Positions 1,138-27,572 of a stretch of DNA of 31,771 nt are shown one piece after another. The stretch lies in NCBI RefSeq assembly GCF_006345805.1, contig NW_021832150.1:1-31771 (forward strand), in the 5' to 3' direction. The notes beneath the pieces were generated by a model. It worked only from the letters and a program-made list of their open reading frames with translations, searched no databases and was not told the DNA's origin. Both the position numbers and the translations under genes were made by a program. The DNA is from Octopus sinensis. Its lineage: Eukaryota. Numbering within the stretch: the first letter of the stretch is position 1; every line of letters starts with the position of its first letter.

Positions 1138-1346
1138 GTTAATCCAAACATGAAAACACAAAGAGAAAACACAACAATGTGAGGACGTGGAACAAGTATA
1201 GTATTATTGGACGCTCAGGAAAGAAGGAAAGAAGGAGGGTTTAAATTTTCGAGCAGAGCACTTCGTCAGAAACATAGGAAAAGGAAAGATCCAAAGAAGC
1301 GAAGACGGAGGAAAAAGAATCGCCAACGGTACACACGCGGTCACAT
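1138..1346 (-). mobile_element. ~210-bp element in (TA)n, family A, with minimal hammerhead-like motif (putative Penelope-like pLTR or non-autonomous retroelement)
   Basis: Flanked by (TA)n and homologous to 9095-9299 and 27481-27572. Minus strand 1239-1273 reads GTTT CTGACGA A GTGC TCT GCTC GAAA AT TT AAAC. Confidence 0.75.
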
Positions 1347-1363
1347 TTTATATATATATATAT

Positions 1364-1565
1364 TCACCATGATAGATCGCTAGCTACTACACATTCTTTA
1401 TTTTCTCTCCTTGTTTCTTTCTGTTTTCCTCTCTGTAGAAGAGCGTAGGTTCGAAACGTTAAAGACTTTTTCACTTCCCGAGCGTTATACTAATACATCT
1501 GTTTGTTGCCTACTTCACCTGTCTTCGTCTTTTGTTTTTTTCTTTTTGTTGTGAATTCTCCCTAT
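1364..1565 (+). mobile_element. ~200-bp element in (TA)n, family B, with variant hammerhead-like motif
   Basis: Homologous to 22347-22531 (minus) and 3126-3302. 1429-1464 reads CTCT CTGTAGA A GAGC GTAG GTTC GAAA CG TT AAAG. Confidence 0.75.
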
Positions 1566-1572
1566 GTATATA

Positions 1573-1989
1573 TATGATTTACGTAAAGACTAGGAGATAA
1601 TCACTTTGTGTTTACTTTTGATAGAGAAGCATTTTCACCTCCATAATTTGAAGACGTCTAAGGCCAGCAGTGTCTGAGATCTGAAGATACGCCGTGAGGT
1701 TAAACCCCCTGTGAGCGAGAAACCCAGGGTAGCCCCATAAACCGACTCCCATTATAATATCAACTGATCTACATCTTAGAGTGTGCTTCTCCCCGGACTT
1801 ACGTATTTCTATAAAAGATATATATGGGGCTACCCTGGGTTTCTCGCTCACAGGGGGTTTAACCTCACGGCGTATCTTCAGATCTCAGACACTGCTGGCC
1901 TTAGACGTCTTCAAATTATGGAGGTGAAAATGCTTCTCTATCAAAAGTAAACACAAAGTGATTATCTCCTAGTCTTTACGTAAATCATA
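1573..1989. repeat. Perfect inverted repeat: 167-bp arms (1573-1739 / 1823-1989) with 83-bp spacer
   Basis: Right arm reads as the reverse complement of the left arm; both junctions and the C5/G5 run were checked by eye. Confidence 0.95.
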
Positions 1990-3125: not shown

Positions 3126-3302
3126 CCATGATTGACCGCTAACTCCAAAAGATTTTTTTTCTTTTCGCTTTCTGTTTATTTCCTCGTGTTCCTTTCTGCA
3201 GGCTCGAAATGTAAAAGACTCACCTTCCTGAGTCACAAACTAATACACCTGCTTGTTGTTATGCACCTGTTTTCGTCTTTTGTTTTCTTCTTGCAAATTT
3301 CA
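3126..3302 (+). mobile_element. Degenerate family B element (hammerhead-like core partly deleted)
   Basis: CCATGAT...CCTTTCTG/CAGGCTCGAAATGTAAAAGAC...CTAATAC...CACCTGTTTTCGTCTTTTG aligns with 1364-1565 and is followed by (TA)n. Confidence 0.65.
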
Positions 3303-7944: not shown

Positions 7945-8972
7945 ATGTTATTTTTTTATTATTTTTTTATTTATTTTATTTTATTTTTATCTAGTTTCAG
8001 CTTACAAGCTGTGGCCATGCTGGGGCACCGCCATTTGGTGTTGCTACATGATTTTACTTCACGAATGCTTTATGCAACTGCCATTTGGTGCATGAGAGAG
8101 TTCGATGCAGCTGCCCTCATCTGCACCTCCTGCCGTGAAGTTGGTTCATCTGGGACACCTGACAAGAAGAGGTCCAGTTTTGTTTTAAAAACAACTGCAT
8201 CCACCCCATGCAGGTCTCTTAGGTTCTTCGGGAGGATATTGAAGAGCTGTGGGCCTCGGAAGCCCAGGCTATCACAGTATCTCGTCCTACATCTTGATGG
8301 CAAATTTGGAGTCCTTGGCACTCTGCAGTGGCGCCCAGTTCTGGTATTTGTGTAATTCTCGATGCCAAAGTTTGGGACAAGTCCTTCTAGGATCTTCCAG
8401 ATGTATATTATGGCATATCTTTCTCGCCTACGCTCTAAGGAATAGAGTCTTAATCTCTTGAGTCATTCCCAGTAGCTTATATGCTGCACAGAGGCTATAT
8501 TCTTCGTGTAGCTTTGTTGGATAGCCTCAAGGTCTGTGATTAACTTGACACTGGATGGTGACCATAGCTGAGAGCAATAGTCAAAGTGGCTTAGGACAAG
8601 TGTCCTCCAGAGGACCATCATGGTTTCCTGGTCTCTTGTTCTAAAGGTTCTAAGAATCCATCCGGTCCGCCGCCTACATTTCATTGCCAATTTAGCAACA
8701 TGCACATGAAAGGCTGCATCATCACTCATGTAAATACCCAGGTCTCGCACTGATTGTGCCTCTGGGATTGCAATCCCTCCTGGTCCAGTGTATTCATTGG
8801 GTATTGCATTTAGTTTTGCATGCTGATAGCATAAAGCTTGAAACTTTTCAGCATTGAACTGCATGCTAATCTTTTCAGCCCACTTGTGTATTTTGTCCAG
8901 CTCACATTGCAGGTGCTTAGTGTCTTCAGGGTTCTGTATTGCCTGTGAAACATTTGTATCATCTGCATAACT
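7945..8972 (-). mobile_element. 5'-truncated LINE, CR1/L2 group (Jockey superfamily): RT C-terminal half, 3' UTR stem-loop and A-rich tail
   Basis: One frame from 8972 to 8070: SYADDT..LQCELDKIHKWAEK..MQFNAEKF..VRDLGI..GWILRTF..LVLSHFDYCSQLWSP..LEAIQ..SYWE*LKRLRLYSLERRRERY..WK..FKTKLDLFL..VPDEP..SNSL. A single TGA lies at 8463-8465. (TA)-rich flanks on both sides. Confidence 0.92.
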
Positions 8973-9094
8973 TATATATATATATATATAATACATACAT
9001 ATATATGGTATATATAATGTATATTATACATATATGTAACATGTATAAAATATATATAATATATGTATGTATATATACACAGATATAATATATA

Positions 9095-9299
9095 GTTATT
9101 CCAAATACGAACTGAGAGAAAACGCAACAACGCGAGGACGTGGAACAAGTATAGTGTTATTGGACGCTGAGGAAATGAAAGAAAGAAGGGGAATTTAACG
9201 TTTCGAGCGCAGCTCTTCGTCAGAAACATAGAAAAAGGAAAGATCCAAGGAAGGGAAGACGGAGATGGAAAATCGCCAACGATTCACACGTAGTCACAT
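9095..9299 (-). mobile_element. Family A element in (TA)n with best-preserved hammerhead-like motif
   Basis: Collinear with 1138-1346 over its full length; TA tracts on both sides. Confidence 0.8.
9193..9227 (-). ncRNA. Candidate minimal type I hammerhead ribozyme
   Basis: GUUU CUGACGA A GAGC-UGC-GCUC GAAA CG UU AAAU: core boxes CUGANGA and GAAA, 4-bp stem II, 4-bp stem I, and palindromic AACGUU in place of stem III. Activity untested. Confidence 0.6.
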
Positions 9300-21703: not shown

Positions 21704-22346
21704 GCAACTGCAGTGAATCTACCTTTAGAAGATGAAACCGCCTGAAAAAGAAATTCATATTTCAGTCATTCTTTGGAAACCGAAACTCATTCGAACGAAG
21801 TTATTTTTTGCAGAGAGGTATCCGGATTGTTTATCCGTGTGGTTTATCCGGAATTTGTGGGGAATTTTCGTCCAGGATCCGTTCGAATATTATAAAATCT
21901 TTCTCTTCTCTTTGGTGCCTTGACATGATGTTAAAGCGAACAGAGCCAGTCTACATGAAGAAGATCTATCTTAGCGTTGCCATGTGATACGAGCATGGTT
22001 TTAGTGGAGGATGGTTAGCACGAAAACCGTGACTTGGGAGCATTTTGGGGTTGATGCCAGCATGATTTTGACAGTGCTATTGGAATATTTTCCACAAGAT
22101 ACGAATGATATAGCGCTCGTAGTGGCATAGGAGGGAAAAAAATTTTTGAACTTCTTGAGACGATACCAATATTCAATATCCATAATATCGTATATTTTTC
22201 TTGTGATCGATCCTTCGGTCGCTCGTGATGACGAGCGAAAGTGGAGAAAAGGAGGAGCACGCCTTCTGGGATATGTAAATTTGGTGTTCAGGTGGACACT
22301 GTGTAACTTGTATATATATGCATATATATATATATATATATATATA

Positions 22347-22531
22347 GGGAGAATTCACGAAAAAACACAAGACGAAGACAGGCAGTGTAGAAAACAAACA
22401 GACGTATTAGTATAACGCTCGGGAATCGAAAAAGACTTTTACGTTTTGAGCCTATGCTCTTCTACAGAAAGGAACACAGAAACAAACAAGGAGGGAAAAA
22501 TGTGTGTAGTGGCTACCGATCTATCATGGCG
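22347..22531 (-). mobile_element. Family B element in (TA)n with hammerhead-like motif
   Basis: Reverse complement aligns with 1364-1565. Minus 22436-22471 reads CTTT CTGTAGA A GAGC ATAG GCTC AAAA CG TA AAAG. Confidence 0.8.
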
Positions 22532-22584
22532 ATCTATCTATCTATATGTATATGCATATATATATATATATATATATAAATATA

Positions 22585-23513: not shown

Positions 23514-24020
23514 AGTGGCCGTGTTGTAAGTACCTTGCTTACCAACCACATGGTTCTGGGTTCAGTCCCATTGCGTGGAACTTTGAGCAAGTGTCTTCTA
23601 CTATAGTCTAGGCGTAGGAGTGGCTGTGTGGTAAGTACATTGCTTACCAACCACATGGTTCCGAGTTCAGTCCCACTGCGTGGCACTTTGGGTAAGTGTC
23701 TTCTACTATAGCCTCGGGCCGACCAAAGCCTCATAAGTGGATTTGGTAGACGGAAACTGAAAGTAGCCCGTCGTACATACGTATATATGTATGTATGTGT
23801 GAGTGTATATGTTTGTGTGTCTGTGTTTGTCTCCCTAACATCTCTTGACAACCGATGCTGGTGTGTTTACGTCCCGGTAACTTAGCGGTTCGACAAAAGA
23901 GACCGATAAAATAAGTACTAGGTTTACAAAGAATAAGTCCTGGGGTCGATTTGCTCGACTAAATGCGGTGTTCCAGCATGGACACAGTCAAATGAATGAA
24001 ACAGATAAGAGTAAAAGAGA
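23514..24020 (+). mobile_element. Family 1 SINE (23611-24020) preceded by a duplicated 5' segment (23514-23610)
   Basis: Box A/B and CAAGTGTCTTCTACTATAG occur twice; full body and tail GCGGTGTTCCAGCATGGACACAGTCAAATG present. Confidence 0.92.
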
Positions 24021-27480: not shown

Positions 27481-27572
27481 TTCTTCCTTCTTTCCTGAGC
27501 GTCCAATAATACTATATTTGTTCCACGTCCTCGCGTTGTTGTGTTTTTTTGTGTTTTCTTGTTTGGATTAAC
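27481..27572 (+). mobile_element. Truncated family A element ending at a TA-rich tract
   Basis: CCTGAGCGTCCAATAATACTATA.TTGTTCCACGTCCTC...GTTTGGATTAAC is the reverse complement of 1138-1232. Confidence 0.85.

What the first reader, a model, noticed from the sequence alone, without database searches (positions are those of the whole stretch)
1138..1565. Two related ~200-bp (TA)n-associated element families carry a minimal hammerhead-ribozyme motif with covariation
Seen: family A (1138-1346, 9095-9299, 27481-27572) and family B (1364-1565, 3126-3302, 22347-22531) all abut TA-rich tracts; the four copies with an intact core share one layout. Stem I covaries between families (GUUU/AAAC in A, CUUU/AAAG in B). 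Stem II stays GAGC/GCUC-like while its loop varies (UCU, UGC, GUAG, AUAG). Established: Penelope-like elements (PLEs) carry minimal type I hammerheads lacking a proper stem III in their pseudo-LTRs, and such variants can cleave as dimers. Inference: these are PLE solo-pLTRs or retrozyme-like non-autonomous elements, at high local density (6 copies in 32 kb), that prefer TA microsatellites.
Basis: partly seen in the sequence, partly recalled or inferred. Interest (0 to 1): 0.75.

Follow-up and report, generated by a model that had tools for sequence, protein, structure and literature searches.

The report
Neptune retrotransposon ends carrying altered hammerheads
These short repeats are the end pieces of two Penelope-like (Neptune-type) jumping genes that sit in TA repeats and carry a minimal hammerhead-ribozyme motif; most exact matches to the motif in the genome have a changed catalytic-core letter, which suggests the RNA fold is likely kept while self-cutting is weak or dispensable.

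Summary
All six repeats are real. They are terminal repeats (pLTRs) or truncated 3' ends of two related Neptune-type Penelope-like retrotransposons: longer copies lead into RT + CX4CxxC + GIY-YIG coding sequence, and pLTR-ORF-pLTR copies exist. The motif has the published minimal type I hammerhead layout, and stems I and II covary across other motif families of this genome. Only the two A copies keep CUGANGA; family B has U at core position 6. Of 28,505 exact motif matches genome-wide, 57% are A6U, 26% vary at position 4 (all 100 listed are U4C) and 15% are canonical. B keeps the rest of the motif fixed while position 7 takes all four bases, also in young full-length copies and in runs under four organism labels. 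Most sampled copies start upstream of the predicted cut (28 of 30 A, 27 of 30 B), so uncut RNA is likely the usual template. PLE hammerheads are known; a dominant A6U lineage was not found in the papers searched, but one key paper could not be read. Activity is untested.

The parts
1138..1346 (-). A1: solo pLTR of Neptune-type family A; 3' end runs into (TA)n at about 1122-1137
1239..1273 (-). A1 minimal type I hammerhead motif with stem I; core CUGACGA kept, U-U mismatch in stem II, AAUU in place of ACGU; predicted cut between 1243 and 1242
   Evidence: cut site inferred from the published layout
1347..1363 (.). (TA)n tract between the head-to-head 5' ends of A1 and B1
1364..1565 (+). B1: solo pLTR of Neptune-type family B
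1429..1464 (+). B1 hammerhead-like motif, core CUGUAGA (A6U), one mismatch in stem I
3126..3293 (+). B2: old family-B copy with the 5' half of the core deleted
9095..9299 (-). A2: solo pLTR of family A
9193..9227 (-). A2 hammerhead motif, the only fully regular one in the window
22345..22532 (-). B3: solo pLTR of family B
22436..22471 (-). B3 hammerhead-like motif, A6U plus a private G12A change
27484..27572 (+). A3: 5'-truncated family-A copy that begins 3' of the hammerhead

Best explanation
The six repeats are solo terminal repeats (pLTRs) and truncated 3' ends of two related Neptune-type Penelope-like retrotransposons, likely copied into (TA)n tracts by the element's own endonuclease and reverse transcriptase from RNA that was likely still uncut at its minimal hammerhead motif. 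Shown: pLTR-5'UTR-ORF-3'UTR-pLTR layout; RT, CX4CxxC linker and GIY-YIG coding sequence; 3' ends that stop at a TA-like run which full-length elements carry at the pLTR/5'UTR junction; a motif held constant between subfamilies; fixed A6U (family B) and U4C (most of family A). Inferred: the nicked (TA)n target pairs with that internal TA run and primes reverse transcription inside the RNA; copying stops after about 200 nt (in A mostly at an Initiator-like site, possibly the transcript start); canonical-core copies could cut as an ACGU-paired dimer or with help from the element's protein; in the A6U and U4C lineages cutting is weak or dispensable and the fold is kept for pairing or protein binding.
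For: Longer copies: tblastn with an 889-aa relative hits the same strand upstream of the repeat in 4 of 7 A and 6 of 6 B long loci. The A repeat ends about 250-325 nt upstream of the ORF start in 16 of 30 ORF-start loci. In 7 B stretches, 5 have an upstream pLTR, 4 a downstream one and 3 both; L385 and L386 have A6U in both pLTRs, with upstream pLTRs 98.0 and 98.5% identical to the subfamily majority. RVT_1 scores above cut-off and GIY-YIG just below. The linker CSRPRCRTC and its spacing match the Neptune rows, not the Nematis or Poseidon rows, of PMC8557442's supplement (compared by eye). The motif matches the consensus of PMC4209133 Fig. S3. In 30 loci with other stems, stem I has 75 of 120 Watson-Crick cells vs 43+-6 shuffled and stem II 63 of 90 vs 48+-4, 0 of 10,000 shuffles reaching either. 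B subfamily majorities differ at 1 of 27 motif positions while ungapped flanks differ at 4-25%. In contigs laid without motif selection, position 7 shows all three other bases and position 6 none at the 5% level in 4 of 4 runs. 28 of 30 A and 27 of 30 B copies start upstream of the predicted cut. PMC11167929 reports for an anole PLE that hammerhead mutants insert normally, uncut RNA is the dominant substrate and cutting needs the protein.
Against: No cleavage, RNA end or strand was observed; only contigs of runs guessed to be RNA were available. The hammerhead fold is not the predicted minimum-energy fold as monomer or dimer. The covariation shuffle ignores relatedness, the pattern forced the first stem II pair and restricted the second, and 3 of the 30 loci are mutated B copies. 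B subfamilies were defined by position 7 and collected with at most 2 motif changes, so part of the motif constancy is built in; pairwise P values are 0.004-0.09 for five pairs and 0.67 for one. Other blocks (CCTGAGCG...ATAC) are also conserved. Upstream pLTRs of ORF-bearing A copies do not share the sharp 5' boundary (starts -68 to +62) and B starts are scattered, which weakens the transcript-start reading. Family A shows an unexplained excess of junctions 2 nt 3' of the predicted cut, which may mean some cutting. Neptune placement rests on motifs, not a tree.
Confidence: 0.8

Rival explanations
1. The A6U and U4C motifs are fully working ribozyme variants: dimer formation, the element's protein or another metal ion compensates, and cleavage is a needed step of the cycle.
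For: All other core positions stay fixed while N7 is free, the pattern expected of a functional core. Natural A6C and U4C variants keep low but detectable or sufficient activity (PMC3088659 passages), and A6C cuts well in Mn2+ (PMC7151607 passages). The anole PLE hammerhead is protein-assisted. Some junctions fall at the predicted cut in both families.
Against: Changes at position 6 lower activity strongly in Mg2+. Most copies keep the sequence 5' of the cut. In B the peak at the cut (10 direct junctions) is matched by the other TA dinucleotide in the loop (7), so microhomology can explain it (counted by eye).
Confidence: 0.25
2. The motif in B and in the U4C subfamily is a dead relic that hitch-hikes; its constancy reflects recent common ancestry or an overlapping DNA signal (promoter or protein site), not RNA structure.
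For: Two lineages fixed different core changes and together outnumber canonical copies about 5.6 to 1. Folding gives no support. Within A and B only one compensatory pair is seen.
Against: The B subfamilies diverged up to 25% in the flanks yet changed only the hammerhead's free position. A and B keep the motif at 21-23 of 27 positions against about 40-51% in flanks.
Confidence: 0.2
3. The roughly 200-bp copies are a SINE- or retrozyme-like non-autonomous family amplified from its own short master or circular RNA.
For: Family A copies have a sharp 5' boundary (18 of 30 within -1 to +13 of a TC/ATTC site), and short copies far outnumber long ones (5,633 and 1,570 first-look candidates for the repeats vs 185 for the ORF start).
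Against: The same sequence, subfamily by subfamily, is the pLTR of ORF-bearing elements, and lengths grade upward. Sampled copies are dispersed monomers, not tandem arrays; retrozymes are defined as tandem units (bioRxiv 10.64898/2026.07.22.740005, part 1 of 5).
Confidence: 0.1
4. MITEs or chance look-alikes of a hammerhead.
For: No Rfam hammerhead hit.
Against: No terminal inverted repeats; direct link to PLE ORFs; reversed-pattern controls give 0 against thousands of matches and 13 against 377.
Confidence: 0.01

Closest known systems
Neptune clade of endonuclease-containing Penelope-like elements (e.g. Neptune1_Nv, Neptune1_Ap rows in PMC8557442 supplement)
   Same: One ORF with RT, then CX2-5CxxC linker, then C-terminal GIY-YIG; pLTR tandem layout; hammerhead near the 3' end; microsatellite targeting.
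   Different: Long low-complexity 3' UTRs (about 0.8-1.8 kb). Tens of thousands of solo pLTRs (rough estimate 39,000 A and 36,000 B). Most exact motif matches are non-canonical.
Minimal type I hammerheads of metazoan PLEs (Cervera and de la Pena 2014, PMC4209133)
   Same: U-rich lead, short stem I, CUGANGA plus one extra base, G-C closed stem II, GAAA-CG-UH with a palindromic ACGU in place of stem III.
   Different: Every row in the part of Fig. S3 that I saw has A6 and U4, and the only core change reported there is U3-A8. Here A6U and U4C dominate. No cephalopod row was seen ('octopus': 0 hits in supplement file 2; file 1 could not be searched).
Poseidon_Ac of the green anole (Frangieh et al. 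2024, PMC11167929)
   Same: Internal start of reverse transcription near the pLTR/ORF junction, AT-rich targets, uncut RNA as main template.
   Different: There priming is at a site not homologous to the target and leaves a tail; here copies end at an internal TA run that matches the target, and most lack a tail. There the cut lies inside the ORF; here the motif is far from the ORF start.
Natural hammerhead core variants A6C (phage Bcep176) and U4C (viroid) (PMC3088659, PMC7151607)
   Same: Single substitutions at core positions 6 and 4.
   Different: Those are rare single RNAs with full stems; here A6U is fixed in over 16,000 exact genomic copies of a minimal motif.
Non-LTR retrozymes (bioRxiv 10.64898/2026.07.22.740005)
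   Same: Type I hammerhead, PLE pLTR ancestry.
   Different: Retrozymes are tandem arrays; these are dispersed monomers tied to coding elements.

Membership tests
EN+ Penelope-like element | RT followed by C-terminal GIY-YIG endonuclease in one reading direction | tested here: met
   the copies examined carry frameshifts; GIY-YIG scores 20.8 and 21.7 vs cut-off 22.6
EN+ Penelope-like element | pLTR: the 3' end repeated upstream of the ORF | tested here: met
   16 of 30 A ORF-start loci; 5 of 7 B stretches, 3 with both pLTRs
EN+ Penelope-like element | RT phylogenetically sister to telomerase RT | not tested
   no tree built; no named references in hand; PDB sequence search gave no relevant hit
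Neptune clade | CX2-5CxxC linker before GIY-YIG with Neptune-like spacing; two Cys inside the GIY-YIG core | tested here: met
   searches compared by eye with rows
Neptune clade | Placement in the Neptune group of an RT tree | not tested
   only by-eye likeness to the Neptune1_Ap RT row
Neptune clade | Microsatellite (TA)n insertion bias | tested here: met
   26 of 30 and 25 of 30 vs 275 of 2400
Minimal type I hammerhead (family A, CUGA subfamily) | Core C3U4G5A6N7G8A9 / G12A13A14 / A15.1-U16.1 / H17 | tested here: met
   4,230 exact matches (includes a small sister family); window copies A1, A2
Minimal type I hammerhead (family B; family A CCGA subfamily) | Canonical core with U4 and A6 | tested here: not met
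   A6U in 16,261 matches; position 4 not U in 7,492, all 100 listed U4C
Minimal type I hammerhead | Stems I and II supported by covariation | tested here: met
   across other motif families of the genome (relatedness not corrected); within A/B only one compensatory pair
Minimal type I hammerhead | Palindromic 15.2/16.2 for a dimer stem III | tested here: met
   ACGU in all six subfamily majorities; the dimer is not the predicted minimum-energy fold
Minimal type I hammerhead | Self-cleavage after H17 | not testable with these tools
   no raw RNA reads; genomic junction footprint inconclusive
Rfam hammerhead families | Match to a covariance model | tested here: not met
Non-LTR retrozyme | Tandem units each with a hammerhead, no ORF-bearing parent | tested here: not met
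   dispersed monomers in samples; ORF-bearing parents; no genome-wide tandem search was run
MITE | Terminal inverted repeats | tested here: not met
   4-9 of 25

The most novel reading that the evidence does not exclude
The most successful Neptune lineage of this genome has carried an A6U hammerhead through at least four subfamily radiations and across related species under purifying selection. It is either a new natural active-site variant that cuts with help (dimer, protein or Mn2+), or a hammerhead fold turned from a ribozyme into a non-cutting RNA element for dimerisation or RT loading. Canonical, U4C and A6U sister lineages would then form a natural series for asking what PLE hammerheads are for.
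Probability: 0.45. Interest if true: 0.65.

Novelty: new variant of a known kind. Interest (0 to 1): 0.42.

Why it matters
What the hammerhead does in the PLE cycle is open (PMC8557442 and PMC11167929 passages). This genome holds sister lineages with canonical, U4C and A6U cores that all spread to thousands of copies, with the A6U motif apparently still constrained, and most copies look made from uncut RNA. That is in-genome support for cleavage being dispensable and gives direct test material. It also means descriptor searches that require CUGANGA would miss about 85% of these motifs. The internal TA run at the pLTR/5'UTR junction offers a testable account of (TA)n targeting and of mass solo-pLTR production.

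Tried and rejected
Rfam scans found no hammerhead model. Single-strand and dimer folding gave no energetic support; target folds were 3-5 kcal/mol above the monomer minimum for A_T, A_C and B_T and within about 1 for B_A and B_G, and dimers prefer other pairings. No PLE protein match lies inside the window. PDB sequence search was uninformative. Expression: no RNA holder listed on record; contigs of runs guessed to be RNA cover both repeats but cannot show ends, strand or level. Junction footprint of cleavage, counted by eye from listings: family A has 15, 10 and 31 junctions at cut+1, +2, +3 among 75 distinct loci in the first 100 of 144 rows (12 more ambiguous, 7 other) vs 7, 7, 1 at the upstream AAA run (17 loci); family B has 37, 12, 10 (61 loci) vs 4, 8, 4 (18 loci). 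Cut+1 has TA microhomology to the target, so this was judged inconclusive; only the A excess at cut+3 stays unexplained. 'Window is unusually rich in TA targets' was not shown: 20.8 vs 21.3 tracts per 10 kb in comparison loci that are themselves biased. Literature searches for A6U or the variant heptamers with hammerhead, and for hammerhead with Neptune, Octopus or cephalopod, listed no report of this variant (listings only, one search showed 15 of 56). The 2017 paper on small PLE hammerhead variants that cleave as dimers (recalled) is not held and may cover such variants.

Full report
Observation. The window is contig C8621 of a 2.72-Gb, microsatellite-rich animal genome; that the host is an octopus is my untested guess. 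A1 (-) and B1 (+) lie head to head across a short (TA)n. Four copies hold a motif. Only A2 is regular: A1 has a stem II mismatch, B1 and B3 read CUGUAGA instead of CUGANGA, B3 has also lost G12, B2 lacks half the core and A3 begins 3' of it. Rfam and folding give no independent support.

What they are. Both repeats have thousands of relatives. Some copies extend 5'. Walking upstream through low-complexity 3' UTRs reaches RT and GIY-YIG coding sequence on the same strand in 4 of 7 A and 6 of 6 B long loci. The closest proteins are mostly unnamed RT proteins, up to 64% identical over part of the query; the named ones come from animals such as a shark, corals and sea urchins. The A repeat also lies about 250-325 nt upstream of the ORF start in 16 of 30 loci chosen by ORF start. 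Of 7 B stretches, 3 are complete pLTR-ORF-pLTR copies; in L385 and L386 the two motifs are about 4.5 kb apart and both are A6U. All ORFs examined have frameshifts. The CX4CxxC linker and its distance to the GIY-YIG core fit the Neptune rows of the PMC8557442 supplement (by eye, no tree). A and B are distant sisters: ORF DNA is about 66-75% identical, and pLTR majorities agree at 21-23 of 27 motif positions but only about 40-51% of flank columns.

Insertion anatomy. Solo copies end in (TA)n in 26 of 30 A and 25 of 30 B flank-anchored samples against 11% background. In full-length elements the same point is followed by a short TA-like run and then the 5' UTR, in both families. I infer that the nicked (TA)n target pairs with this run and primes reverse transcription inside the RNA. 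PMC11167929 (parts 1-2 of 4 read) showed internal initiation for an anole PLE, but at a non-homologous site. Family A copies start mostly within -1 to +13 of a TC/ATTC Initiator-like site (18 of 30; 'Initiator-like' is recalled knowledge). This may be the transcript start, but upstream pLTRs of ORF-bearing copies (16 examined) and B copies do not show the same sharp edge. A rough capture estimate (9 of 30 and 14 of 30 samples hold an exact core) gives about 39,000 A and 36,000 B copies, or about 0.9 per window; six is high but the window was selected. Median divergence from the subfamily majority is 3.3-5.5% in these samples, which lean toward well-kept copies.

The motif. It matches the metazoan minimal-hammerhead consensus of PMC4209133 (main text parts 1-2 of 4 and part 2 of 3 of supplement file 2 read; file 1 not searchable). 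A pattern excluding the A/B stem found 377 further motifs against 13 in the reversed control. In the first 30 of these, stem I pairs in 75 of 120 cells (shuffled 43+-6) and stem II positions 2-4 in 63 of 90 (48+-4), and 25 of 30 have A6. Relatedness is not corrected, and the pattern fixed the first stem II pair. So the motif class is real in this genome; within A and B alone there is just one compensatory pair.

Core variants. Exact counts with the GAGC/GCUC stem are 4,230 canonical, 16,261 A6U, 522 with C or G at 6, and 7,492 with non-U at 4 (all 100 listed U4C), reversed controls 0. From 247 collected copies (26 unassigned and left out), four B subfamilies differ at 4-25% of ungapped flank positions but only at position 7 of the 27-nt motif. 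They were grouped by position 7 and collected with at most two motif changes, so this is partly built in. The unselected check agrees: contigs from four runs under four organism labels, laid at 80% identity, show all three alternative bases at position 7 and none at position 6 above 5%; other variation in the motif is at CpG sites, H17 and B3's private changes. Published data (passages only) show that changes at positions 6 and 4 cut activity strongly in Mg2+ but not to zero, and that A6C works in Mn2+.

Does it cut? 28 of 30 A and 27 of 30 B copies begin upstream of the predicted cut, so the RNA that is copied is usually intact there or re-ligated. Junction scans show some copies beginning at the cut, but TA microhomology accounts for the B peak, and only an A excess two bases further on is unexplained (counted by eye, about 1% of copies or fewer). 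No RNA ends could be seen. This agrees with the anole result that hammerhead mutants insert normally, and with the remark in PMC8557442 that the function is unclear (passages).

Verdict. The class of element and motif is known. The new point is that the dominant lineages carry fixed A6U or U4C cores, with the A6U motif apparently still constrained. I did not find this in the searches run (listings, plus passages of PMC13282606 with no mention of hammerheads; bioRxiv 10.64898/2026.07.22.740005 part 1 of 5). The most relevant 2017 paper (recalled, not held) and Repbase/Dfam were not seen and may bear on novelty. Novelty: new variant of a known kind; interest 0.42.

Noticed in passing
window 1564-1739 and 1823-1998: 176-bp inverted repeat, 99% complementary, 83 nt apart, starting at the 3' (TA) end of B1; a foldback element or an assembly inversion.
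   Followed up: no
window 23514-23775: SINE-like repeat (label recalled) with a 105-bp tandem duplication; the same repeat flanks many fetched loci. ARAGORN finds no tRNA.
   Followed up: no
window 8463-9023 (-): Fragment of another reverse transcriptase, LINE-like by eye (RVT_1 E 3.6e-4, below cut-off), next to A2.
   Followed up: partly
L385:1925-1960, L386:2022-2060; L266-L293 about 1230-1260: Both families keep a GC-rich CGCTCAC-type motif just 3' of the internal TA run at the pLTR/5'UTR junction; candidate RT-binding signal.
   Followed up: no
pLTRs of A and B, 20-30 nt 3' of the predicted cut: A second conserved block (TTCCTGAGCG...ATAC) is shared by both families; function unknown.
   Followed up: no
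L194-L223: Several further hammerhead-bearing repeat families with different stems and mostly canonical cores; 2 of 30 have PLE protein matches within 1.5 kb.
   Followed up: partly
L136, L137, L158, L030:1801-1972: A third, diverged sister family of A with a canonical CUGAAGA core and UUU-type loop.
   Followed up: no
L033, L038, L321 5' ends: A G replaces the templated C just before the ATTC start in three A copies; possible cap-derived base, too few to judge.
   Followed up: no
L038, L004, L055, L030, L311: A and B copies often sit side by side in one TA tract, as in the window; 24 extra copies in 363 kb of A/B-anchored loci vs 1 in 82 kb of other loci.
   Followed up: partly
L130:536-4490: Large near-perfect palindrome of a roughly 490-bp tandem repeat upstream of a B element.
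   Followed up: no
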